Shown here piece after piece: positions 1-8,059 of a DNA stretch of 64,000 nt. The first letter of the stretch is position 1, and each line of letters begins with the position of its first letter. Source of the DNA: an uncultured virus (IMG/VR IMGVR_UViG_3300008108_000135) (Duplodnaviria; Heunggongvirae; Uroviricota; Caudoviricetes). The stretch lies in IMG/VR virus record IMGVR_UViG_3300008108_000135. One strand, written 5' to 3'. The position numbers and the translations under genes are program-made. The notes beneath the pieces were generated by a model. That model made no database searches and was not told where the DNA came from. It was given only the letters and a program-made list of their open reading frames with translations.

Positions 1-46
1 TTGTCAACAGGTCTATGAACTTAACGAGTTCACCTTTTCTTACCAC
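1..46 (-). ncRNA. 5' end of putative structured RNA, truncated by window edge; probable paralog of 302-524 RNA
   Basis: Minus strand starts TGGTAAGA...TAGACCT like the 302-524 element; TGAACT/AGTTCA hairpin; follows boxA-like 59-69 and promoter 75-82. Confidence 0.4.
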
Positions 47-58
47 CACATTTTTTAC

Positions 59-69
59 TTTCAAAGAAC
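59..69 (-). promoter_or_regulatory. boxA-like antitermination element (GTTCTTTGAAA)
   Basis: Variant of the GTTCTTTGACAT copies at 532, 837 and 4888; just downstream of TATCTTTG promoter motif (75-82). Confidence 0.5.
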
Positions 70-131
70 TTATTCAAAGATATGGGTTTCATTTTAAATT
101 GCCAAATCTTTTTTTAATTTTTTTTATTCCC

Positions 132-252
132 TCTGTACTCAATTGTAAATTACATGTGTTAGTATCATTACTCCATAGTTAAATACTTAGTGTTGCCTCT
201 TACAGTTACCACTCTGATGCGGAGCACATCAATTCATCACACGCTTTACAGA
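132..252 (-). ncRNA. putative structured ncRNA
   Basis: Closing stem TCTGTA/TACAGA, internal hairpins TGATG/CATCA, AGTG/CACT, AGTAT/ATACT; possible loop-loop pairing GCTCC/GGAGT; not covered by the ORF track. Confidence 0.4.
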
Positions 253-301
253 ATTTTTTCCTTGTTCTGTTAAAATAATTTACAACACAATATTTTAAAA
301 A

Positions 302-524
302 TGGTAAGACCTTAAGATTTACTCATTCGTGGGTCACCCCATCCTTACTACCTATACCTCGCCTTTAACATCCGTTCTACCCAAACCATCGTTTTTACCT
401 GTTAACCTCTCGGAAAACTTTGAGTACCTCCTCAACCTTTTAATCTGATAGGGGCTCCGTCTTGCTCGTTATTTCTAACTCCCTGTGGGATTCTGCTGAT
501 ATAGGTCTATCTGCTATCTTACCA
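302..524 (-). ncRNA. putative ~220-nt structured ncRNA
   Basis: Closing stem TGGTAAGAT/GTCTTACCA, long-range ACCTATA/TATAGGT, GNRA hairpins (GTTA-GAAA-TAAC, CC-GAGA-GG), TTGAG/CTCAA; starts 7 nt after boxA-like motif. Confidence 0.55.
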
Positions 525-531
525 ATCTAAT

Positions 532-543
532 ATGTCAAAGAAC
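532..543 (-). promoter_or_regulatory. boxA-like element GTTCTTTGACAT
   Basis: Identical 12-mer at 837-848 and 4888-4899, each just before stable-RNA genes; resembles rrn boxA. Confidence 0.6.
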
Positions 544-608
544 TTTTTCTTTTTGGGAGGACAGGTCCCACTCACATCATCAACCCTGTCCCCCCGTCTT
601 TCATATTA

Positions 609-616
609 CAAATCTA
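609..616 (-). promoter_or_regulatory. Bacteroidota-type promoter -7 element (TAGATTTG)
   Basis: TAnnTTTG match with upstream TTTG; followed by a GC-rich hairpin (555-594) and boxA. Confidence 0.55.
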
Positions 617-660
617 AGTATTCTATTTTAGACTGCCAAATGTTTTTTTACTTTTTTTTG

Positions 661-742
661 TACCCTCGGTGGGATTCGAACCCACACGCTCTTGGAGCAT
701 TAGTTCCTAAAACTAACGTGTCTACCATTCCACCACGAAGGC
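661..742 (-). tRNA. tRNA-Leu(TAG)
   Basis: Cloverleaf, anticodon arm TTAGT-TTTAGGA-ACTAA, long variable arm, TTCGAAT T-loop. Confidence 0.92.
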
Positions 743-749
743 ATTGTTG

Positions 750-822
750 AGGTCTCTAACGGATTCGAACCGTTATCTCTGGGTTACAAAACCAGAATAA
801 TAAGCCATTATACTAAGAGACC
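750..822 (-). tRNA. tRNA-Thr(TGT), atypical
   Basis: Acceptor GGTCTCT/AGAGACC, loop TTTGTAA, U31-C39 mismatch, TTCGAAT T-loop. Confidence 0.75.
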
Positions 823-836
823 TTATTTACACCGAT

Positions 837-848
837 ATGTCAAAGAAC
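837..848 (-). promoter_or_regulatory. boxA-like element GTTCTTTGACAT
   Basis: Exact repeat, 14 nt before tRNA-Thr. Confidence 0.6.
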
Positions 849-890
849 CGTTTGTTTTACAAATGTATAAAAAATAAACATACATAAAAC

Positions 891-919
891 AAAAAACCCC
901 TCTTTTTTGGAGAGGGGTT
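891..919 (-). terminator. intrinsic terminator / attenuator hairpin 2
   Basis: AACCCCTCT/AGAGGGGTT stem with U-tract, about 20 nt after leader ORF stop. Confidence 0.8.
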
Positions 920-940
920 CTTAAAATATTATTATTTAAG

Positions 941-1018
941 TTAACATACCTTCTCCGTTACAAAGGGCTTGTCCCCCTCCGTTCTCGCGTCTAAAAGTAT
1001 GTTAAGTAAATTTTTCAT
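941..1018 (-). CDS. putative attenuator leader peptide 2 (MKNLLNILLDARTEGDKPFVTEKVC)
   Basis: 25-codon ORF read by hand; its last codons and TAA are complementary to the 5' arm of the downstream terminator. Confidence 0.65.
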   Translation of the reverse strand: MKNLLNILLDARTEGDKPFVTEKVC

Positions 1019-1066
1019 TGTCTTTTTAATTAAATATATCAGAGTTTTTAAAAGTATCAAGGTTTT

Positions 1067-1399
1067 TTATTTTTTATAAAACCAAAAAGAGTTTTTACCA
1101 CAATTACCAAGTTTAAATAAACTACCTTCAAAGACATCATTTAATTTTTCAATAACTTCTTCGGCAATTTCTTCAGTATCCTCACCTGATTGTTTAAATT
1201 TGACCATAAATCTATCGTATGGTTTATCTGAGGATTCACGGTGACCACCAATCCATTCATCTTCACCAACGTAATCGTCCATAAGTTTGTTTAACTCAGA
1301 TTCAATTTTTTTATTTGATGGGTCTTTCTTACTTTCATTGATTACTCGTTTAACAAATCTTGTTAAATCCGATTCTGTTAGCCTAATTACTTTTTTCAT
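1067..1399 (-). CDS. hypothetical protein with MKKVIRLTESDL leader (putative virion internal protein)
   Basis: Start reassigned to ATG 1399 after ATATTTAT motif; leader shared with genes at 56904, 61858, 62649, 63197. Confidence 0.8.
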   Translation of the reverse strand: MKKVIRLTESDLTRFVKRVINESKKDPSNKKIESELNKLMDDYVGEDEWIGGHRESSDKPYDRFMVKFKQSGEDTEEIAEEVIEKLNDVFEGSLFKLGNCGKNSFWFYKK

Positions 1400-1433
1400 A
1401 TTAATAAATATTGCAATTGGTATAAAAAATAAT

Positions 1434-1552
1434 GTCCAGGTGTGGGAATCTAACCCACTTAGTCCATATTCGTTGCTTGTACGTCTGGGCAATTTATTGT
1501 TAGGACCGTCCCATTCGTCAATGGGGTGTGTAACACAATCCACCTACCTGAA
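1434..1552 (-). ncRNA. tRNA-like RNA (acceptor + T-arm, non-tRNA interior)
   Basis: TTCAGGT/ACCTGGA 7-bp stem plus GTGGG-TTAGATT-CCCAC T-arm; interior CCCATT/AATGGG hairpin; no anticodon arm. Confidence 0.5.
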
Positions 1553-1563
1553 GGTTTTATGTG

Positions 1564-1646
1564 TGGGATGTGATGGAGTCGAACCACCCGAGTCCGAAGA
1601 CAAACGATTTACAGTCGTTCCCGCTGCCCCTACGGTATAACATCCC
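1564..1646 (-). tRNA. tRNA-Tyr(GTA)
   Basis: Cloverleaf, loop CTGTAAA, long variable arm. Confidence 0.93.
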
Positions 1647-1651
1647 AAGTT

Positions 1652-1786
1652 TAGGAAATCAGAAGATGGTTGTGTGGACATCTGATTTTACGATTGGCAT
1701 TACTTTGGTGTATATCTCCCAACTCCGATGATACTGACCGATATACACTCTCGTGTCATTAGTATCACCCTTCCCCAATCAACCTA
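1652..1786 (-). ncRNA. putative pseudoknotted ncRNA between tRNA-Asn and tRNA-Tyr
   Basis: TAGG/CCTA closing stem, GATTGG/CCAATC, crossing helices TGATACT/AGTATCA and GTGTATATC/GATATACAC, AAATCAGA/TCTGATTT hairpin. Confidence 0.6.
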
Positions 1787-1789
1787 TTG

Positions 1790-1862
1790 CGACTCAGACA
1801 GGACTCGAACCTGTAACGTTCACATTAACAGTGTGATGCTCTCCCAATTGAGCTACTGAGTC
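1790..1862 (-). tRNA. tRNA-Asn(GTT)
   Basis: Cloverleaf, loop CTGTTAA, G73. Confidence 0.93.
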
Positions 1863-1868
1863 ATTTTG

Positions 1869-1940
1869 CGCGTCTCCAAGGACTCGAACCCTGACCAAGA
1901 GATTTGGAGTCACTTATGCTTGCCGTTACACCAAAGACGC
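1869..1940 (-). tRNA. tRNA-Trp(CCA)
   Basis: Cloverleaf, loop CTCCAAA, G73; one anticodon-stem mismatch. Confidence 0.88.
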
Positions 1941-1966
1941 AAATAATGAAATTAATTATTTCATTG

Positions 1967-2040
1967 AGGACAGAGAGGGATTTGAACCCCCGAATAATGG
2001 ATTTGCAGTCCACCCCTTTAAACCACTCAGGCATCTGTCC
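1967..2040 (-). tRNA. tRNA-Cys(GCA)
   Basis: Cloverleaf, loop CTGCAAA, U73. Confidence 0.93.
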
Positions 2041-2053
2041 TTGTTAATTTGTT

Positions 2054-2121
2054 TAGAGGTTGGTTTACATTCAGTGACCATGACTTGTACTTCGTCTCAA
2101 GGGGTAAACCCTATACCTCTA
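2054..2121 (-). ncRNA. putative small structured RNA
   Basis: TAGAGGT/ACCTCTA and GGTTTAC/GTAAACC nested stems in a tRNA spacer. Confidence 0.35.
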
Positions 2122-2124
2122 TTG

Positions 2125-2275
2125 TGACCCCAATGGGAATCGAACCCACCTTGTTAACTACATATAAGATGCTTTGACCTAAGTGACCCATATACTAGTA
2201 CTACGGGTGCCAACTACAAATTATCATCGTTAACCCACTCACCGCTTCGGTTGCGACCCTAACAGTTATGGAGTC
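2125..2275 (-). ncRNA. tRNA-like RNA with ~120-nt structured interior
   Basis: GACTCCA/TGGGGTC-A acceptor, GTGGG-TTCGATT-CCCAT T-arm, GTTAAC/GTTAAC helix enclosing ACCCGTA/TATGGGT hairpin. Confidence 0.6.
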
Positions 2276-2281
2276 GTATTG

Positions 2282-2353
2282 TAGCCCCTGTAGGACTCGA
2301 ACCTACACTATCTTGTATGTAAAACAAGCGCTTTTCCTTTAAGCTAAGGAGCT
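2282..2353 (-). tRNA. tRNA-Val(TAC)
   Basis: Cloverleaf, CTTGT-TTTACAT-ACAAG. Confidence 0.9.
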
Positions 2354-2360
2354 ATTTTTG

Positions 2361-2435
2361 TATCCCCGAAGAGATTCGAACTCTTGACCCCTCCATTAAA
2401 AGTGGAGTGCTCTAATCCTGCTGAGCTACGAAGAC
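2361..2435 (-). tRNA. tRNA-Lys(TTT)
   Basis: Cloverleaf, CTCCA-CTTTTAA-TGGAG. Confidence 0.92.
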
Positions 2436-2441
2436 ATTTTG

Positions 2442-2514
2442 TTGTGATGGAGGGATTCGAACCCCCGTAAACTATCGTATCAGGATAGCCCCTACACCGC
2501 TCGGGCACATCACA
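2442..2514 (-). tRNA. tRNA-Ile(GAT)
   Basis: Cloverleaf, CTATC-CTGATAC-GATAG. Confidence 0.88.
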
Positions 2515-2531
2515 GTTTTAGTTTCTTGGAA

Positions 2532-2539
2532 CAAATATA
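2532..2539 (-). promoter_or_regulatory. Bacteroidota-type promoter -7 element (TATATTTG) upstream of tRNA-Ile
   Basis: TAnnTTTG match 17 nt before the tRNA. Confidence 0.5.
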
Positions 2540-2570
2540 ACCGTTTTTTGGTATATACCGCAACATTATA

Positions 2571-3389
2571 CTAATTTTCTTTTTCTTTTTTTCTGTCTTT
2601 ATATGTTTTATTTACTTTATGTTTAGCAACCTCATCGTTAAAGTCAGATATTTCTTTATCAGTTATATTATTAATTCTGTTATTGGCGTTGATAATATAT
2701 TCCTCAGATATATCAATCCCAAAATAGTTATGCCCTAATAGTTTAGATGCAACCGCTGAAGTTCCACTACCCATATATGGGTCAATAATGTCACAACCTT
2801 CTTTATCATCCAATATTGAGTAAATACATCTTGTCGGTATTTCAATTGGAAATGGTGCGGGATGATTAGATACCGTAGATTTATTCATTTCAGGTCGTAA
2901 TCTCCAAACTGATGTCATTAATGCATGTTTAGATTTTAATTCCTCACCATTATCTTTTTTATTTATTGGTTTGTACAACCAATAAATTCTTTCCTCCACT
3001 TGCCAAAATCTCCAACCTCTAATATTTGCGGCAATTTGTCTATCCCAAATTATTTCTTGTTTAACTGTCCAATCAGTTTTTTTTAACCAATCCATCGGAT
3101 GAAACATTTCTCCTTTATCCCATCTAATTTTATGGTTATAAAAGAACGAACCTCCAGGTTTAATAACACGAAACAATTCGTTTAGTATTTCAATTTGCTC
3201 TATTTGGTATTCAGATTCATTTTTATTATCCGTAATATCCGAATATTTAATATCCTTAACCAAGACACCTTTTCTATTGTTTTGTTTATTATAAGGTGGG
3301 GATGTTACACCCATATCAAAAATGTTTTCATCAAGTGTTTTTAAAACATCATACACATCACCAAGTACTATATTGTTTTTAATTTCCAT
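2571..3389 (-). CDS. site-specific DNA methyltransferase (N4-C/N6-A, beta class)
   Basis: TSPPY catalytic motif, HPAPFP, DPYMGSGTS SAM-binding motif. Confidence 0.92.
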   Translation of the reverse strand: MEIKNNIVLGDVYDVLKTLDENIFDMGVTSPPYNKQNNRKGVLVKDIKYSDITDNKNESEYQIEQIEILNELFRVIKPGGSFFYNHKIRWDKGEMFHPMDWLKKTDWTVKQEIIWDRQIAANIRGWRFWQVEERIYWLYKPINKKDNGEELKSKHALMTSVWRLRPEMNKSTVSNHPAPFPIEIPTRCIYSILDDKEGCDIIDPYMGSGTSAVASKLLGHNYFGIDISEEYIINANNRINNITDKEISDFNDEVAKHKVNKTYKDRKKEKEN

Positions 3390-3987
3390 ATTCAATCAAC
3401 GATTTAAAAAACGGTTTTGTAAATTTATGTTCATATTCACTAATCATAGGTGAAATATATTCAAGTCTAAACGAATCTGAATTTTTAAAGTGTAAGTAAC
3501 TAAATTTAACACTTCTAACATATCTATTTAATTCATCACCGTTTGGTAAGTGTTTAGTTAATTGCCGTTCTATTTCATTTACAAAATCAACTGAGTTATA
3601 TTGGAAACTTACTAAAAACAATAATTTACCATCTAAAAACCCCGACACTACCATTTTAACTTTATCATCTTTATATTTTTTGTGTCTTTTCCATGTAAAG
3701 TCACTGAAATTACCTGAACCGTCAAACTTTTTAGTTGAATCTGATGATAAATTCTTTGGTTTAACTTCAATTGGGTATTCGTCAGAATCGTACCCTAATT
3801 TGTGAACACTTTGTTTTACCCCTAAAATCCCCAATGTCACCCCTTCTCTAAATAATGAGGAATTTTTATCATTAGACATCTCATTAAGTAACCCTAATAA
3901 TAACGTTTCTTTGGTTTTGTCATCAAGTTCTAATATTTTAGAATTATCTCCTAATGAATAGTTTAATTTTAATTCTGATAGATTCAT
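3379..3987 (-). CDS. putative type II restriction endonuclease
   Basis: Overlaps the MTase start; YDS..IEVK PD-(D/E)xK-like motif; about 200 aa. Confidence 0.6.
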   Translation of the reverse strand: MNLSELKLNYSLGDNSKILELDDKTKETLLLGLLNEMSNDKNSSLFREGVTLGILGVKQSVHKLGYDSDEYPIEVKPKNLSSDSTKKFDGSGNFSDFTWKRHKKYKDDKVKMVVSGFLDGKLLFLVSFQYNSVDFVNEIERQLTKHLPNGDELNRYVRSVKFSYLHFKNSDSFRLEYISPMISEYEHKFTKPFFKSLIEYGN

Positions 3988-4048
3988 ACAATACATTTTT
4001 AACAAAGTACGTAAATAAAATAAATTATTCAATACCATTAATTTTTTG

Positions 4049-4123
4049 TAGGGTAGACAGGACTCGAACCTGCACTATGTCCTCATCCCAAATGAGGCGG
4101 CCTACCAATTGGCCAACTACCCT
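4049..4123 (-). tRNA. tRNA-Pro(TGG)
   Basis: Cloverleaf, CCTCA-TTTGGGA-TGAGG. Confidence 0.9.
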
Positions 4124-4129
4124 ATATTG

Positions 4130-4199
4130 TACCGAGTATGGGGATTGAACCCACTTGACCATCCTTATGAGAGATAGTTCTTTACCACTAAGCCTCGGT
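4130..4199 (-). tRNA. tRNA-Met/Ile2(CAT), atypical short D-arm junction
   Basis: ACCGAG/CTCGGT acceptor, loop CTCATAA, T-arm present; positions 8-9 appear missing. Confidence 0.7.
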
Positions 4200-4206
4200 A
4201 TCTCAG

Positions 4207-4295
4207 CGGAGAATGTGGGATTCGAACCCACGCATCATGTTTCAGACCTATCACGTTAGCAATGTGACCCCTTAAACCATCTTGGGTAATTCTCC
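4207..4295 (-). tRNA. tRNA-Ser(GCT)
   Basis: Cloverleaf, loop TTGCTAA, long variable arm, G73. Confidence 0.9.
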
Positions 4296-4299
4296 GTAG

Positions 4300-4371
4300 A
4301 AGTCTCTGAAGGATTTGAACCTTCTCTAAAACATCCGTAGTGTTTCGTGCTGTCCGTTACACCAAGAGACC
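4300..4371 (-). tRNA. tRNA-Arg(ACG)
   Basis: Cloverleaf, AAACA-CTACGGA-TGTTT. Confidence 0.9.
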
Positions 4372-4377
4372 AAAGTG

Positions 4378-4451
4378 GGTAACTAATGGGAATCGAACCC
4401 ATGGCACAAGGAACCACAATCCTTTGCTCTACCTACTGAGCTATAGCTACC
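4378..4451 (-). tRNA. tRNA-His(GTG)
   Basis: G-1:C73 pair, loop TTGTGGT. Confidence 0.93.
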
Positions 4452-4471
4452 ATAAAATTTTATTTTCTATG

Positions 4472-4544
4472 TGGAGAGGGTGGGAATCGAACCCACATTG
4501 CTGGATTTTCAGTCCAGTGCCTTGACCAACTTGGCAACCTCTCC
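4472..4544 (-). tRNA. tRNA-Phe(GAA)
   Basis: Cloverleaf, CTGGA-CTGAAAA-TCCAG. Confidence 0.92.
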
Positions 4545-4550
4545 TTATTG

Positions 4551-4624
4551 TTGTCCTGGAAGGATTTGAACCTCCAATTTCCTCGTTCAAAGCGAGGTGA
4601 CTTTGCCAGTTCGTCTACAGGACA
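4551..4624 (-). tRNA. tRNA-Gln(TTG)
   Basis: Cloverleaf, CCTCG-CTTTGAA-CGAGG, U1-A72. Confidence 0.92.
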
Positions 4625-4630
4625 GTGAAC

Positions 4631-4768
4631 TCACTTTTTGAGTTTTTTTAAAATCTTTTTTAAAAGTTTTGATTTTACTTTAATTTTAATCCCTTCTTTT
4701 CTTAAATTTTCCTGACTTGAGTTGAAGGTCCCCTCAAGTACAATTTTAATAGTTTCTTTTTTTCCCAT
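4631..4768 (-). CDS. small basic hypothetical protein (45 aa, MGKKETIKIV...KKLKK)
   Basis: ORF fills the spacer between tRNA-Ser and tRNA-Gln. Confidence 0.4.
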   Translation of the reverse strand: MGKKETIKIVLEGTFNSSQENLRKEGIKIKVKSKLLKKILKKLKK

Positions 4769-4784
4769 AATTTATTTTTTAGCG

Positions 4785-4871
4785 AGGAGGGTGTGGGACT
4801 TGAACCCACAAGACCTATTACACGTCTTACTCGTTTTCAAGACGAGCTCTTCATCCAGCCAGATACCCTCC
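4785..4871 (-). tRNA. tRNA-Ser(TGA)
   Basis: CTCGT-CTTGAAA-ACGAG, long variable arm; short D-arm, U73. Confidence 0.82.
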
Positions 4872-4887
4872 GAATTTTTATACCAAT

Positions 4888-4899
4888 ATGTCAAAGAAC
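4888..4899 (-). promoter_or_regulatory. boxA-like element GTTCTTTGACAT
   Basis: Directly abuts the attenuator U-tract and precedes the first tRNA. Confidence 0.6.
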
Positions 4900-4930
4900 A
4901 AAAAACCCCCGAACTTGTGGTCCGAGGGCT
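4900..4930 (-). terminator. intrinsic terminator / attenuator hairpin 1
   Basis: AGCCCTCGGAC-CACAA-GTTCGGGGGTT plus U-tract. Confidence 0.82.
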
Positions 4931-4950
4931 TATATCATAGTTAATCTTTT

Positions 4951-5067
4951 TTAACTTATAAAACACTTCGGACTACCATATGACATGCTCGGATACCAAT
5001 TGCGGTTACACGAGATGACAATCTGTGATTGTTTAAAATTAATCATATGTTTACCAAATGTTTTCAT
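4951..5067 (-). CDS. putative attenuator leader peptide 1 (MKTFGKHMINFKQSQIVISCNRNWYPSMSYGSPKCFIS)
   Basis: 38-codon ORF between promoter 5087-5094 and terminator; 3' end complementary to terminator 5' arm. Confidence 0.75.
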   Translation of the reverse strand: MKTFGKHMINFKQSQIVISCNRNWYPSMSYGSPKCFIS

Positions 5068-5086
5068 TGTTTTTTAATAACTATTA

Positions 5087-5094
5087 CAAATATA
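5087..5094 (-). promoter_or_regulatory. Bacteroidota-type promoter -7 element (TATATTTG) driving leader 1 and the tRNA operon
   Basis: TAnnTTTG 19 nt before leader ATG. Confidence 0.6.
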
Positions 5095-5129
5095 GGAAAA
5101 ATCCTCGTTTAATCAATATTTCTTTAAAA

Positions 5130-5309
5130 TTATATTTTTTTCACTGAATAAATGTGACCTGAATCTGAATTTGTTTGAAATATCTCTTTCATCTTATCAG
5201 CCTCCTTTTCAGATTCAAACTCCCAAACTTCATTATCAGAATTTAAAATTATAACAGGTAACCATTTACCTGATTTTTTGTTTTTAATGCTTTTGATTAT
5301 TACATACAT
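5130..5309 (-). CDS. hypothetical protein (59 aa, MYVIIKSIK...)
   Basis: ORF read by hand, preceded by TACATTTG (5328-5335). Confidence 0.6.
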   Translation of the reverse strand: MYVIIKSIKNKKSGKWLPVIILNSDNEVWEFESEKEADKMKEIFQTNSDSGHIYSVKKI

Positions 5310-5359
5310 AGTTTTAGATTTTTTTTACAAATGTAACGTTTTTTTGGTTACGGTTCAAC

Positions 5360-8059
5360 TTAGTATTTGTTTTTTCTTGAAAATGGGTTATTTGAGTCGT
5401 CACGTTTTCTTTTTTGAGGGAAGAACTCCCTATTTTGAGCCGCCAAAGTACCCTTTTTAATTTCAATAAGTTTATTCCTGTCGTTTGGCACATGTTCTCT
5501 AACAGGTTTCACATTTTTTGATGGATGGTATATATCAGTTCTATTTAAAACTTGATTGATTAAATCATAATTTATTTTGGAATCAGAATTTTTTGGTTTA
5601 ACATTTAATTTAATAACGTCAGTTAATAGAGTATCTATTTTTTGTTTATTAATTATGAATTTTTCATACTCTTCATCAATAATCTTTTTATTAAAAATTT
5701 CATAAAAAGATTCGGTTACTAAATTTTCTATCGGTCCAAAAGTTTTTCTTTTTTTACTTAAATTATAATATTTACCTCTCATTTGAGAAGATAAATTAGT
5801 ATCGGGATGTTGAGTTAAACTATTTTTATGGACCCTTCTATAAAACCCTAAAGATTTGGTATGGATTAATTTGACATTATTTTTATATAATCTATTCATT
5901 AGGTCAGAATCCGCCGCACATCTCCACCCCTCAAAACCATTCATGTCTAAAAATAATTTTTTCTCAATTCCAAAAACACCTTCACCATATGTGTTTGCAT
6001 TTGATTTTTCCAAATTAATGTTTTTAACTTCTTCGTTGAAATCTATATACATAGGCTTTATTAGCTTATGTGTTGATTTATAACGAATGATGTCTTGGAC
6101 AAGTTCTTCTTTCATAATGTCATCAGAATCAAAAAACATTAAATAATCAGAATTTGAAATCAGTGATAAACTATTTTTAACAATATAAGGTCCGACATTT
6201 TGATTAAAGTAATAGAATCTAATTCTTGGGTCAAATTTACTGTCTTGAATATAAGATAGTGTTTTTTTGCACCCATCAATTCCAACTAATATCTCAACAT
6301 TTAAATCTTTAATTGATGTTAATACAGAATCTAAACATTCGGTTAAATAATTTAAAACATTATACGTTGGGATGATGATTGATATGTCCTTTTTATTGTT
6401 TTTTATATCAAATTCATTAACCATTTTATTTAACGTTAATAAATCTTTTAATACCAAAATATTCTCATTTTTATCGTTATTACCAATAACTAACCCTTTA
6501 TTACCAGGTATCCAATTAATTAAATTTTCTAATATTTGATGTGAGAAACTTTTTTTATTATTATCCACCGAAAATAAAATTTTACTATTAAGTTTTTCTT
6601 TAAAATTATTTTCTAAGTAAGTAAGATGGTGCATATACATTTGAGAAATATAATATTTTTTTTCGGGCATTTTTCTTGCAGGGTCAGAAAGAACTGAACT
6701 ACTTATATGTCTACCATATTTTCTTTCATCAATTTTATAAATTGATGGTACGTAAAGTTTGTCCTCAACAAAGTAATATTTATCACTTTTATAATATGAC
6801 ACGATTGGTGAATATAATGTGTCAATACCATTCTCATTCATGAATTTTATTTCATCAGTAACATATCTATCATTATAACATTCATCATTATCTAAAGTTA
6901 GAATATAATCACAATTCGCGTTTTTACATTTAGATAAACCAACATTTCGTTTGTCTATCATTCCGATAATCTTATCTACCACATCTTCATCATATAACAC
7001 CAATTCATCTATATAACCACAATCAACCAATTCTTGTAATAAAATATTATTTTCAATTGAGCCGATTTCACCCGAAAAACTTTTTTTCTGATGAACCACA
7101 CATATGTAATCAACAACATTAATAATTGATTCAATTGATTTTTTTAATACGTCAACATTATAAAAGGAATTATATGAAACCCCAACTTTTAAATTATTAA
7201 ATTGTTTAGTTTTAAACCTATGAGATATTGTTCTACTAAAATCTAACCATTTATTGTTAGTCAACAATTCAGTTAACTTTTTTTCTAAAGTTTCATAATT
7301 TTCAAATTCGTGGATTAAATCACCATAATAATTCTTTTTACTTAGTTCCGATACAACACATTTACTATTATTTAATAAATAAAATAACCTTACTTGTTCT
7401 TGTATTGACGATTCATAAAAATGTAAATTTAAAATAATTTTAGTTTCTGAAATTATATTATCTAACTTATCCGAAAAATCTTTAGGTAAAAATTTAATTC
7501 CCGAATTATTTAACTCAACGTTATCTACATCAAAATTGTCACCAATAACAACTAAATTAAATTTAGAATTTATTTTTTTTAAAATTTCAAATCGTTTTTT
7601 ATTTATTGCACCATAAAATAAAATGTCGTATTTAGGGTTTTGATTAACCTTTATGTTTTCTAAAGATTTAGAATATTTAAGTGGTACAAATTTTACTTTA
7701 TTGTAACCAAGAGTTTCTAAAAACCACTTATTAGATAAATCATATTCCCATATTTCATCACATTCATCCAACCATTTTTTAATGTGAGAGGTTCTATGTT
7801 TCACATGTTTTGAATTACTATTAGGGTTAAACCAATTTGGGTTATAATTAAAAAGTTGCTCTAATTGGTAAACTATTATTTTTTTATTAGGGTATTTTTC
7901 TCTATAGAAATTAATCTCTTTACCTAAATTATATCCTAATATAACCAGACAATTATGGTATTTAGAATTATCAGAATATAATTCTTCAACCATTGTCTTT
8001 ACATGTAAAAATGTACCAACATCACTATCTCTGTTGATTACACATTTAAGTTTCTCCAT
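5360..8059 (-). CDS. multidomain glycosyltransferase (C-terminal GT2 domain plus further GT-like domains)
   Basis: ISIIIPTYN...FFDSDD GT2 motifs; second LDNDE DxD-like region; N-terminal DILFYG..RLFYLL GT-B-like region. Confidence 0.8.
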   Translation of the reverse strand: MEKLKCVINRDSDVGTFLHVKTMVEELYSDNSKYHNCLVILGYNLGKEINFYREKYPNKKIIVYQLEQLFNYNPNWFNPNSNSKHVKHRTSHIKKWLDECDEIWEYDLSNKWFLETLGYNKVKFVPLKYSKSLENIKVNQNPKYDILFYGAINKKRFEILKKINSKFNLVVIGDNFDVDNVELNNSGIKFLPKDFSDKLDNIISETKIILNLHFYESSIQEQVRLFYLLNNSKCVVSELSKKNYYGDLIHEFENYETLEKKLTELLTNNKWLDFSRTISHRFKTKQFNNLKVGVSYNSFYNVDVLKKSIESIINVVDYICVVHQKKSFSGEIGSIENNILLQELVDCGYIDELVLYDEDVVDKIIGMIDKRNVGLSKCKNANCDYILTLDNDECYNDRYVTDEIKFMNENGIDTLYSPIVSYYKSDKYYFVEDKLYVPSIYKIDERKYGRHISSSVLSDPARKMPEKKYYISQMYMHHLTYLENNFKEKLNSKILFSVDNNKKSFSHQILENLINWIPGNKGLVIGNNDKNENILVLKDLLTLNKMVNEFDIKNNKKDISIIIPTYNVLNYLTECLDSVLTSIKDLNVEILVGIDGCKKTLSYIQDSKFDPRIRFYYFNQNVGPYIVKNSLSLISNSDYLMFFDSDDIMKEELVQDIIRYKSTHKLIKPMYIDFNEEVKNINLEKSNANTYGEGVFGIEKKLFLDMNGFEGWRCAADSDLMNRLYKNNVKLIHTKSLGFYRRVHKNSLTQHPDTNLSSQMRGKYYNLSKKRKTFGPIENLVTESFYEIFNKKIIDEEYEKFIINKQKIDTLLTDVIKLNVKPKNSDSKINYDLINQVLNRTDIYHPSKNVKPVREHVPNDRNKLIEIKKGTLAAQNREFFPQKRKRDDSNNPFSRKNKY

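What the first reader, a model, noticed from the sequence alone, without database searches (positions are those of the whole stretch)
837..1040. Second leader attenuator carrying the complementary amino-acid set (L,D,A,T,E,G)
Seen: 25-codon ORF 1018-941 (MKNLLNILLDARTEGDKPFVTEKVC), then terminator 919-891, boxA 848-837, tRNA-Thr and tRNA-Leu. Its core LL-N-I(ATA)-LL-D-A-R(AGA)-T-E-G-D contains all six amino acids missing from the first tRNA block, plus the ATA and AGA codon boxes. The ORF end GGAGAAGG..TTAA is complementary to TTAA..CCCCTCTCC in the terminator 5' arm, the same layout as leader 1 with unrelated sequence. Inference: the two leaders divide the 20 amino acids between two tRNA transcription units. 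Only Thr and Leu are visible here, so Ala, Asp, Glu, Gly and Arg(TCT) tRNAs are predicted beyond position 1 or at this locus in relatives. Caveats: the antiterminator pairing is weaker, and a TACATTTG motif at 860-867 could bypass the terminator.
Basis: partly seen in the sequence, partly recalled or inferred. Interest (0 to 1): 0.85.

Follow-up and report, generated by a model that had tools for sequence, protein, structure and literature searches.

The report
Leader-peptide attenuator before phage tRNA genes
A freshwater phage carries a tiny translated leader, a terminator hairpin and an rRNA-type boxA in front of its second tRNA block, built like the classic trp attenuator but apparently sensing the very tRNAs it controls.

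Summary

The unit is a conserved module, not chance. I found 40 distinct homologous loci in uncultured large phages. All 40 keep a 22-25 codon ORF, and 39 keep the terminator.

- **Antiterminator pairing:** the last ORF codons pair with the terminator 5' arm. 95.5% of cells are paired and 4 of 8 pairs show compensatory changes.
- **Codon match:** the middle codons are 67% codons read by the downstream tRNA set, against 22-24% in the other two frames and 32% in the phage's own genes.
- **Tracking of tRNA moves:** leader codons follow tRNA genes that moved between blocks (Thr/Leu-tag in this phage, Arg-tct in relatives).
- **Prediction met:** a contig 100% identical to window 1-5300 shows Asp, Glu, Leu(taa), Gly and Ala tRNAs beyond position 1.

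Best reading is a ribosome-mediated transcription attenuator feeding tRNA genes (confidence about 0.65).

Caveats:
- This phage has a conserved internal promoter after the terminator.
- No RNA data cover this leader.
- Folding energetics are ambiguous.

I found no prior report in three full-text searches.

The parts
1031..1060 (-). Promoter-like element of the leader: TTG (1060-1058), 19-nt spacer, TATATTTA (1038-1031)
   Evidence: Read. The same cTTGAyACTTTTnAAAAGT...TATATTTA stands before every homologous leader printed. The search pattern itself required TATATTTA.
941..1018 (-). Leader ORF, 25 codons plus TAA: MKNLLNILLDARTEGDKPFVTEKVC
   Evidence: All 40 distinct homologous loci keep a 22-25 codon ORF ending at the same place. 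The two length differences between subtypes are 3-nt indels.
971..1009 (-). Proposed sensor codons 4-16: TTA CTT AAC ATA CTT TTA GAC GCG AGA ACG GAG GGG GAC
   Evidence: The best 10-codon window holds 8 block-2 codons (P=0.011), or 9 if Thr and Leu(tag) codons are counted (P=0.005). The enrichment is frame-specific.
949..956 (-). Region 2: GGAGAAGG, inside codons 21-24, five bases upstream of the stop codon. Candidate antiterminator strand
   Evidence: Alignment columns 75-82 pair with columns 121-128 in 95.5% of cells, and 4 of 8 pairs show changes on both sides. Constrained folds pair it with the terminator arm when a ribosome is placed at codon 7 or 12.
973..980 (-). Second G-rich stretch, GGAGGGGG (codons 14-15), also complementary to the terminator 5' arm
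   Evidence: It gives the best ORF:arm duplex, -14.2 kcal/mol, matched by 1% of shuffles. Its role is unclear.
891..922 (-). Intrinsic terminator: 5' arm 922-909 (its core CCCUCUCC, 916-909, is the antiterminator partner), 3' arm about 903-897, T-run 896-891
   Evidence: The hairpin is the RNAalifold consensus of 36 leaders. 94.2% of cells are paired and 3 of 11 pairs are compensatory.
860..867 (-). TAcaTTTG, a Bacteroidota-type -7 promoter motif between terminator and boxA (an internal promoter)
   Evidence: A TAnnTTTG motif sits at this position in 14 of 40 homologous loci. In four relatives printed I read a TTG about 20 nt upstream of it.
835..848 (-). boxA-like GTTCTTTGACATAT
   Evidence: Three exact copies in the window. 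The 17-mer GTTCTTTGACATATTGG occurs in at least 122 bacterial genome loci, mostly titled as Bacteroidota. In 51 of the 122 a 16S 3' end lies 270-880 nt upstream, which places the motif in the 16S-23S spacer.
749..822 (-). tRNA-Thr (anticodon tgt)
   Evidence: 58.7 bits.
660..742 (-). tRNA-Leu (anticodon tag)
   Evidence: 57.5 bits.

Best explanation
This is a ribosome-mediated (leader-peptide) transcription attenuator at the head of the phage's second tRNA block.

**Proposed mechanism.** A promoter at about 1060-1031 starts a short transcript whose first feature is a 25-codon ORF.
- If the ribosome runs quickly to the end of the ORF, it covers GGAGAAGG (956-949), which sits just before the stop codon. 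The terminator hairpin (922-897) then forms and transcription stops at the T-run.
- If the ribosome stalls earlier, on TTA, ATA, CTT, GAC, GCG, AGA, ACG, GAG or GGG, the GGAGAAGG stretch stays free. It pairs with the terminator 5' arm (CCCUCUCC, 916-909) and the terminator cannot form.
- RNA polymerase then runs on through boxA (848-835) into tRNA-Thr, tRNA-Leu(tag) and probably further, to Asp, Glu, Leu(taa), Gly and Ala.

The stall codons are read by the tRNAs encoded downstream, so the loop would raise tRNA transcription when those tRNAs are short and lower it when they suffice. The first leader (5067-4951) does the same for the other amino acids.

**Shown:** the anatomy, its conservation, covariation of the alternative pairing, frame-specific codon bias, and codons that track relocated tRNA genes.

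**Inferred:** that the ORF is translated, that the hairpin terminates, and that stalling gives read-through.

In this phage the internal promoter at 867-860 would add transcription that the attenuator does not control.
For: 1. **Conserved module.** 40 distinct homologous loci in IMG/VR contigs carry the module. All 40 keep a 22-25 codon ORF and 39 keep a hairpin plus U-run. The other 18 pattern hits were unrelated genes.
2. **Antiterminator helix,** alignment columns 75-82 with 121-128.
   - 95.5% of cells are paired, against 46-68% when the partner is slid by 1-3 columns.
   - 4 of 8 pairs show changes on both sides.
   - The covariation score is 0.239 against 0.146 in shuffles, and 0 of 500 shuffles reach it.
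   - In L126 the arm change at column 126 is compensated in the ORF (A to G at column 77), while the terminator pair 126-135 is left broken.
3. **Position of region 2.** It overlaps the last sense codons of the ORF in all 36 aligned leaders.
4. **Constrained folds of the window leader, cut before the 3' arm.**
   - Free RNA: the arm is unpaired.
   - Ribosome at codon 7 or 12: region 2 pairs with the arm.
   - Ribosome at codon 18: the arm is free again.
   - The probability that the arm is paired is 0.28 for free RNA and about 0.8 for stalls at codons 2-14.
5. **No room for a separate promoter in some relatives.** In 12 of 40 loci the terminator is followed directly by boxA (11 of the 12) and tRNA-Leu(taa) at 79-86 nt, with no TAnnTTTG between them. 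There the tRNA can only be reached by read-through.
6. **Frame-specific codon bias.** Codons 4-17 of 32 distinct ORFs are 67% block-2 codons in frame 0. Frames +1 and +2 give 24% and 22%, and phage genes give 32%.
7. **The two leaders differ in codon content.** Fisher p = 0.0003-0.004 in each of 9 contigs that carry both.
8. **Codons track relocated tRNA genes.**
   - In 8 contigs with Thr(tgt) and Leu(tag) in block 1, leader 1 has 2-4 Thr codons and 1-3 CTN codons, and leader 2 has no CTN.
   - In this phage the two tRNAs sit behind leader 2. Leader 1 has 1 Thr codon and no CTN, and leader 2 has ACG twice and CTT twice.
   - AGA in the 5' or middle part of leader 1 goes with Arg(tct) in block 1: 4 with both, 4 with neither, 1 exception, 9 contigs in all.
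Against: - **Internal promoter.** In this phage, and in 14 of 40 loci overall, a conserved promoter motif lies between terminator and boxA. The tRNAs need not depend on read-through there.
- **Next gene is not always a tRNA.** In 13 of 40 loci the next gene after terminator and boxA is a protein gene behind its own promoter.
- **Full-length folds favour the terminator.** Its probability stays at 0.88-0.95 at most stall positions. It falls only at codons 11-13 in the window leader (0.79, 0.11, 0.69) and hardly at all in G002 or L137.
- **Most relatives do not need a stall in the model.** In their cut transcripts the arm is already paired without any ribosome (0.6-0.8).
- **Ribosome at the stop codon.** The window model then pairs GGAGGGGG with the arm, which would work against termination.
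- **Single-sequence duplex test is weak.** ORF 3' end against arm gives a median z of -1.2, and only 2 of 39 leaders fall below -2. The window leader gives -2.47.
- **No conserved 1:2 helix.** RNAalifold finds only the terminator.
- **Tracking has exceptions.** L082 has Arg(tct) in block 1 but no AGA in leader 1. L142 and L194 have Arg(acg) but no CGN codon. L124 lacks several tRNAs whose codons remain in its leader.
- **Not all codons are strictly cognate.** GGC, GCT and CTT are not read by the encoded anticodons under strict wobble rules.
- **Counts are not independent.** The rows are related sequences, and part of the covariation could come from recombination of region 2 and the terminator as one unit (L184).
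Confidence: 0.65

Rival explanations
1. In this phage the small ORF and its terminator are a separate short transcription unit, or simply the end of the upstream gene's transcript. tRNA-Thr and tRNA-Leu are then transcribed from the internal promoter at 867-860 followed by boxA, with no regulatory link between the two.
For: TAcaTTTG at 867-860 is a perfect -7 motif. A TAnnTTTG motif sits at the same position in 14 of 40 loci, and a TTG lies about 20 nt upstream in four relatives. 13 of 40 loci have a protein gene next. The full-length terminator is very stable (-16.6 kcal/mol).
Against: It does not explain three results: the last ORF codons covary with the terminator 5' arm, the codon content is frame-specific and matches the downstream tRNAs, and codons follow relocated tRNA genes. 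In 12 of 40 loci no promoter separates the terminator from the tRNA.
Confidence: 0.15
2. The switch is coupled to translation but senses general translation capacity (free ribosomes, overall elongation rate), not particular tRNAs. The codon content would be incidental or serve another purpose.
For: Region 2 lies at the ORF end, so any slowing of translation would free it. Each sensor codon occurs only once to four times, unlike the long codon runs of the his or pheA leaders.
Against: Block-2 codons make up 67% in frame against 32% in phage genes. The two leaders are complementary in codon content. Codons track tRNA relocation.
Confidence: 0.1
3. The ORF encodes a small functional peptide and the hairpin is its ordinary terminator. 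Standing beside tRNA genes is just conserved gene order.
For: The ORF is intact in all 40 distinct loci, and parts of the peptide recur (MKNLHI..., AED.F).
Against: Variable columns are spread over all three codon positions (10/15/15 and 5/5/8 for positions 1/2/3). Selection on a peptide sequence would concentrate variation at position 3. The window peptide differs from its relatives through most of its length yet keeps region 2. The MKNL start was imposed by my search pattern.
Confidence: 0.05
4. The hairpin is not mainly a terminator. It would be the boxB-like half of a boxB-boxA antitermination or processing module, as in rRNA leaders.
For: Another promoter in the window (about 640-610) is followed by a G+C-rich hairpin (597-553) and then boxA (543-530) without a U-run. 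In 25 of 40 loci boxA follows the hairpin's U-run at once.
Against: A 6-7 U run follows the hairpin in all 36 aligned leaders, which is the signature of an intrinsic terminator. It also does not explain the competing pairing with the ORF end.
Confidence: 0.05

Closest known systems
Leader-peptide transcription attenuators of amino-acid biosynthesis operons (trp, his, leu, thr, ilv, pheA of Enterobacteria) and of pheST. Recalled from textbook knowledge.
   Same: A short translated leader ORF carries codons tied to the regulated product. An intrinsic terminator follows. The strand at the ORF's 3' end, near the stop codon, can pair with the terminator 5' arm. A ribosome at the ORF end masks that strand.
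   Different: - The regulated genes are tRNA genes, so the sensor and the product are the same molecules.
- The sensor is a mix of 7-9 different codon types, each used 1-4 times, not a run of one codon.
- Two leaders split the code between them.
- A boxA follows the terminator.
- The element is on a phage.
- There is no sequence similarity to known leaders: Rfam Phe_leader scores 25.6 bits against a cut-off of 55.
rRNA-operon boxA / Nus-factor antitermination. The mechanism is recalled. The motif's place in Bacteroidota rRNA spacers was tested here.
   Same: GTTCTTTGACATAT(TGG) is identical to the motif found between 16S and 23S rRNA genes of Bacteroidota. It stands after a promoter and before structured-RNA genes.
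   Different: Here it precedes phage tRNA and unknown RNA genes, and in most relatives it lies directly after a terminator. Binding of Nus factors was not tested.
T-box riboswitches, which sense tRNA directly and control aminoacyl-tRNA synthetase and amino-acid genes. Recalled.
   Same: A terminator/antiterminator decision that depends on tRNA status.
   Different: No T-box family match in Rfam. A T-box reads one tRNA through a specifier codon without translation. This element has a conserved ORF and many codon types.

Membership tests
Leader-peptide (ribosome-mediated) transcription attenuator | Short ORF with its own start codon in the leader, upstream of the regulated genes | tested here: met
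   25 codons at 1018-941. Intact in all 40 distinct homologous loci.
Leader-peptide (ribosome-mediated) transcription attenuator | Regulatory codons in the ORF correspond to the regulated product | tested here: met
   67% block-2 codons in frame, against 22-24% out of frame and 32% in phage genes. Codons track relocated tRNA genes, with exceptions.
Leader-peptide (ribosome-mediated) transcription attenuator | Intrinsic terminator between the leader ORF and the regulated genes | tested here: met
   922-891. Present in 39 of 40 loci; L183 lacks it. Termination activity itself was not tested.
Leader-peptide (ribosome-mediated) transcription attenuator | Antiterminator pairing between the ORF's 3' region and the terminator 5' arm, mutually exclusive with the terminator | tested here: met
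   95.5% of cells paired, 4 of 8 pairs compensatory, 0 of 500 shuffles reach the covariation score.
Leader-peptide (ribosome-mediated) transcription attenuator | Upstream 1:2 hairpin (anti-antiterminator and pause site) | tested here: inconclusive
   Strong in the window's minimum-energy fold. It is not conserved in register across the family: RNAalifold returns only the terminator.
Leader-peptide (ribosome-mediated) transcription attenuator | Regulated genes have no promoter of their own after the terminator | tested here: not met
   The window has TAcaTTTG at 867-860. The feature is met in 12 of 40 relatives, where boxA and tRNA-Leu(taa) follow directly.
Leader-peptide (ribosome-mediated) transcription attenuator | Translation of the leader and read-through that depends on stalling | not testable with these tools
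   Needs Term-seq, ribosome profiling or reporters.
Rfam leader families (Phe_leader RF01859 and others) | Score at or above the family's gathering threshold | tested here: not met
   Phe_leader scores 25.6 bits against 55 (E=0.61) on 889-1031. No other leader family reaches E<=1.
boxA (rRNA-type antitermination signal) | Sequence identical or close to the host phylum's rRNA-operon boxA, placed between a promoter and stable-RNA genes | tested here: met
   The 17-mer was found in at least 122 genome loci, mostly titled as Bacteroidota. 51 of the 122 have a 16S 3' end 270-880 nt upstream. That this motif is a NusB/NusE site is recalled, not tested.
T-box riboswitch | Match to the T-box covariance model | tested here: not met
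   No T-box hit at E<=1 in window 1-7000.

The most novel reading that the evidence does not exclude
A lineage of large freshwater phages of Bacteroidota regulates its own tRNA gene arrays through two leader peptides that split the genetic code between them. Each leader stalls ribosomes on the codons read by the tRNAs behind it and lets polymerase through only when those tRNAs are scarce. This would be a self-measuring feedback on tRNA supply, and the first case of tRNA genes under leader-peptide attenuation.
Probability: 0.55. Interest if true: 0.9.

Novelty: new variant of a known kind. Interest (0 to 1): 0.8.

Why it matters
Many large phages carry tRNA arrays, and how those arrays are regulated is hardly known. 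If this reading holds, the leader is a direct read-out of which codons the phage finds limiting in its host. It would also give tRNA genes a feedback control of a kind so far described, as I recall, only for amino-acid synthesis and tRNA-synthetase genes.

The idea can be tested directly with reporters. It would extend leader-peptide attenuation to a new class of targets, and it offers a compact multi-codon sensor design.

Three full-text searches found no paper describing such a system (search listings and abstract starts only). Subscription journals are mostly outside that library.

Tried and rejected
- **Whole genome:** none is held for this window.
- **Cultured relatives:** a search of GenBank phage records with window 1-5200 matched only tRNA genes of unrelated phages.
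- **RNA evidence for leader 2:** in the two RNA-labelled runs X19 and X20, no contig covered bins 871-1218. This says nothing either way. X17 and X18 are probably DNA.
- **Rfam:** no family above threshold on the leader or on the unknown RNAs.
- **Full-length equilibrium folds with a placed ribosome:** the terminator mostly wins. I therefore also folded transcripts cut before the 3' arm. Neither is a kinetic model.
- **Single-sequence duplex test against shuffles:** weak. My script also mislocated the terminator in 5 rows (L137, L140, L156, L169, L173), so those rows are not informative.
- **Upstream protein family (LTESDLTR...):** no Pfam family above its cut-off and no PHROG match, so it gives no clue to function.
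- **T-box and stand-alone peptide readings:** considered and rejected. See the rival explanations and the membership table.

Full report
**What is there**

All features lie on the minus strand, in this order.
- The upstream gene ends with its stop at 1067.
- A promoter-like element follows: TTG at 1060-1058, a 19-nt spacer, then TATATTTA at 1038-1031.
- Next is a 25-codon ORF at 1018-941 (MKNLLNILLDARTEGDKPFVTEKVC).
- An intrinsic terminator lies at 922-892 with a T-run to 891.
- A TAcaTTTG motif sits at 867-860.
- GTTCTTTGACATAT is at 848-835.
- tRNA-Thr(tgt) is at 822-749 and tRNA-Leu(tag) at 742-660.

A first tRNA block (Ser, Gln, Phe, His, Arg-acg, Ser, Pro, then Ile, Lys, Val, Cys, Trp, Asn, Tyr) lies at 4871-1563. 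It sits behind a second unit of the same design: ORF 5067-4951, terminator 4931-4903, the same 14-mer at 4899-4886. The one correction is that Met is also missing from block 1.

**Where it comes from**

No genome is held for the window. The sequence is an uncultured phage, and 16 DNA runs from about a dozen studies hold at least 97% of its sampled words. Most of those runs are labelled freshwater or lake, and four are labelled fungus metagenome.

The promoter motifs (TTG-N19/20-TAnnTTTG) are of the Bacteroidota type, which I recall rather than tested. The 17-mer GTTCTTTGACATATTGG occurs in at least 122 bacterial genome loci. Most are titled as Bacteroidota: Pedobacter, Mucilaginibacter, Chitinophagaceae and others. 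In 51 of the 122 a 16S 3' end lies 270-880 nt upstream, which places the motif in the 16S-23S spacer. That is where rRNA operons carry a boxA (recalled). So the 'boxA' label is well founded as a sequence identity, and the host is probably a member of Bacteroidota.

L199 is a metagenome contig 100% identical to window 1-5300, and it runs 1251 nt beyond position 1. After tRNA-Leu(tag) it carries:
- tRNA-Asp(gtc) and tRNA-Glu(ttc);
- another boxA with an unknown RNA;
- tRNA-Leu(taa);
- an inserted ORF;
- tRNA-Gly(tcc) and tRNA-Ala(tgc), after which the contig ends.

In a 304-kb relative (G002) the second block reads Leu(taa), an odd tRNA-like gene, Met, Ile(tat), Gly(tcc), Glu, Asp, Arg(tct). Asp, Glu, Gly and Ala are therefore confirmed in this phage. 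Arg(tct) and Ile(tat) are seen only in relatives.

**A conserved module**

A pattern search (TATATTTA, a gap, then AATGAAAAATTTAC) gave 81 IMG/VR loci. Together with loci fetched earlier, they contain 40 distinct homologous leader loci. All 40 have an intact ORF of 22-25 codons, and 39 have a hairpin plus U-run. The other 18 hits were unrelated genes. L183 lacks the terminator.

The pattern fixed the start of the ORF, so conservation of MKNL carries no weight. Intactness of the rest, the common stop position and the two 3-nt indels between subtypes were not imposed by the search.

What follows the terminator varies:

| Arrangement after the terminator | Loci (of 40) |
|---|---|
| tRNA-Leu(taa) at 79-86 nt, no promoter motif between (boxA present in 11 of these) | 12 |
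| TAnnTTTG motif, then boxA, as in the window (a tRNA called right after in 11 of these) | 14 |
| boxA, then a promoter and a protein gene | 13 |
| No terminator (L183) | 1 |

**The alternative pairing**

In the alignment of 36 distinct leaders, the eight bases at the end of the ORF (window GGAGAAGG, 956-949) pair with the terminator 5' arm (CCCUCUCC, 916-909).
- 95.5% of cells form a pair, against 46-68% when the partner is slid by 1-3 columns.
- 4 of 8 pairs show changes on both sides.
- No shuffle out of 500 reaches the covariation score.
- The terminator itself scores no better: 94.2% paired and 3 of 11 pairs compensatory.

Separate double changes are visible:
- U-A to G-C at columns 80/123;
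- G-C to A-U at columns 76/127, in both L118 and L127;
- A-U to G-C at columns 77/126 in L126.

In L126 the arm mutation is matched in the ORF while the terminator pair 126-135 is left broken. Two strands competing for one arm is the anatomy of an attenuator. Some of these counts may reflect recombination of region 2 and the terminator as one unit, as L184 suggests. The rows are related sequences, not independent trials.

**Folding**

The window leader folds well below its shuffles (-42.2 kcal/mol, z = -4.75). With the transcript cut before the 3' arm, the results are as follows.
- Free RNA sequesters region 2 in a long stem with codons 5-9, and the arm is unpaired (probability paired 0.28).
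- With a ribosome at codon 7 or 12, region 2 pairs with the arm (about 0.8 for stalls at codons 2-14).
- With a ribosome at codon 18 the arm is free again.

This is the behaviour expected of a trp-type attenuator. The picture is not clean, however.
- In full-length folds the terminator stays formed at most stall positions.
- Most relatives pair the arm even without a ribosome, at 0.6-0.8, and lose the pairing only when the ribosome covers the last codons.
- With the ribosome at the stop codon, the window model pairs a second G-run (980-973) with the arm.
- Single-sequence duplex energies rarely beat shuffles: 2 of 39 leaders have z below -2, and the window gives -2.47.
- RNAalifold recovers only the terminator.

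**Codons and tRNAs**

I defined two codon sets.
- Block-2 codons are those read, under standard wobble, by Leu(taa), Met, Ile(tat), Gly(tcc), Ala(tgc), Glu, Asp and Arg(tct).
- Block-1 codons are those read by the tRNAs of the first block.

| Measure | Result |
|---|---|
| Block-2 share in 45 long ORFs of the window | 32% |
| Block-1 share in the same ORFs | 50% |
| Window leader 2, best 10-codon stretch | 8 block-2 codons (P=0.011); 9 if Thr(tgt) and Leu(tag) codons count (P=0.005) |
| Window leader 2, whole ORF | 10 of 24, not significant (P=0.22) |
| Codons 4-17 of 32 distinct leader-2 ORFs | 67% block-2 in frame; 24% and 22% in the other frames |
| Codons 4-30 of leader 1 | 76% block-1 in frame; 52% and 44% in the other frames |
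| Leader 1 against leader 2, each of 9 contigs with both | Fisher p = 0.0003-0.004 |

The out-of-frame control shows the bias is not a base-composition effect.

The leaders also follow tRNA genes that have moved.
- **Thr(tgt) and Leu(tag).**
  - In the 8 contigs where they are in block 1, leader 1 has 2-4 Thr codons (always including ACG) and 1-3 CTN codons. Leader 2 there has no CTN.
  - In this phage the two genes sit behind leader 2. Leader 1 keeps only one Thr codon and no Leu codon at all, and leader 2 has ACG twice and CTT twice.
- **Leu TTA/TTG.** These codons are absent from all 9 leader-1 ORFs and occur 2-4 times in every leader 2.
- **Arg(tct).** AGA in the 5' or middle part of leader 1 goes with Arg(tct) in block 1 in 4 contigs. 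Both are absent in 4 more, and there is 1 exception. That gives a one-sided Fisher p of about 0.04 by my hand calculation, uncorrected for relatedness. AGA in the core of leader 2 occurs only in the window, G002 and L118, and the latter two carry Arg(tct) in block 2.

Exceptions exist in L082, L142, L194 and L124. Variation among the leaders shows no third-position excess (10/15/15 and 5/5/8 variable columns at positions 1/2/3). That argues against a peptide selected for its sequence and fits a leader whose codon content is what matters.

**RNA data**

Two metatranscriptome runs hold contigs that bridge the first leader's terminator into tRNA-Ser: X20 covers 4734-5064 at depth 17, and X19 covers 4866-5063. 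This is a weak hint that read-through precursors exist at leader 1. Contigs cannot prove a single transcript, and DNA carry-over is possible.

**Verdict**

The most likely mechanism is leader-peptide attenuation of read-through into tRNA genes, followed by boxA-dependent processive transcription (confidence about 0.65). For this particular phage the conserved internal promoter means the attenuator can control only part of the transcription of tRNA-Thr and tRNA-Leu.

It works like the trp, his or leu attenuators. It is not a sequence member of any Rfam leader family. It fails one classical feature in the window: the regulated genes do have a promoter of their own.

Three full-text searches gave no report of tRNA genes under leader-peptide control (search listings and abstract starts only).

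Noticed in passing
window 300-640 (minus strand): A strong promoter-like site (TTTGgca-N17-TAgaTTTG, about 640-610), a G+C-rich hairpin without a U-run (597-553) and a third exact boxA (543-530) precede a stretch with no ORF and no Rfam match. In metatranscriptome run X19 this stretch has the highest contig depth of the region (38.7 in bin 349-522). It is probably an unknown, expressed, structured RNA.
   Followed up: partly
window 1-105 (minus strand) and L199 6162-6275; L033 11500-11610: Another promoter (TTTGgca-N17-TAtcTTTG) with GTTCTTTGAAAG is followed by a conserved RNA-like segment (ggtgaaacgag...) that runs off the window's start. Its counterpart in the 304-kb relative lies just before an odd tRNA-like gene that ARAGORN reports with a 2-base anticodon.
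   Followed up: no
window 4886-5094 (minus strand): The first leader: promoter TAtaTTTG, 38-codon ORF 5067-4951, terminator 4931-4903, boxA 4899-4886, then tRNA-Ser. There are 11 distinct homologues. In the 10 relatives tRNA-Thr begins 65-80 nt after the leader's stop codon, just past the terminator, which leaves no room for a promoter. Only 0.9% of 37-residue windows in phage proteins hold all 13 block-1 amino acids. RNA-library contigs of two runs bridge this terminator.
   Followed up: partly
window 1067-1393 (minus strand); L008 9995-10679; L033 10564-10884: The gene just upstream of leader 2 belongs to a multi-copy family with a conserved N-terminus (K.TESDLTRIVKRVI.E). At least 546 stretches in IMG/VR were confirmed by tblastn, often on 200-326 kb contigs. 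It has no PHROG match and no Pfam family above its cut-off.
   Followed up: partly
L183 about 465-560: One relative keeps the leader ORF but has lost the terminator. boxA follows 20 nt after the stop codon. This is a natural 'terminator deletion' variant.
   Followed up: no
window 4130-4199 (minus strand): A tRNA-like match just under the Rfam cut-off (28 bits against 29) lies between tRNA-Pro and tRNA-Ser(gct). ARAGORN did not call it. It may be a decayed or unusual tRNA.
   Followed up: no
L199 about 6689-7129: An ORF is inserted between tRNA-Leu(taa) and tRNA-Gly(tcc) in the same phage. From the DNA I read what looks like a Cys-x2-Cys...His motif, as in homing endonucleases, but it was neither translated nor searched.
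   Followed up: no
window 2571-3395 and 3379-4038 (minus strand): Two protein genes split the first tRNA block: an N6/N4 DNA methyltransferase (PF01555, E=5e-30) and a protein of PHROG 3210 (unknown function).
   Followed up: partly
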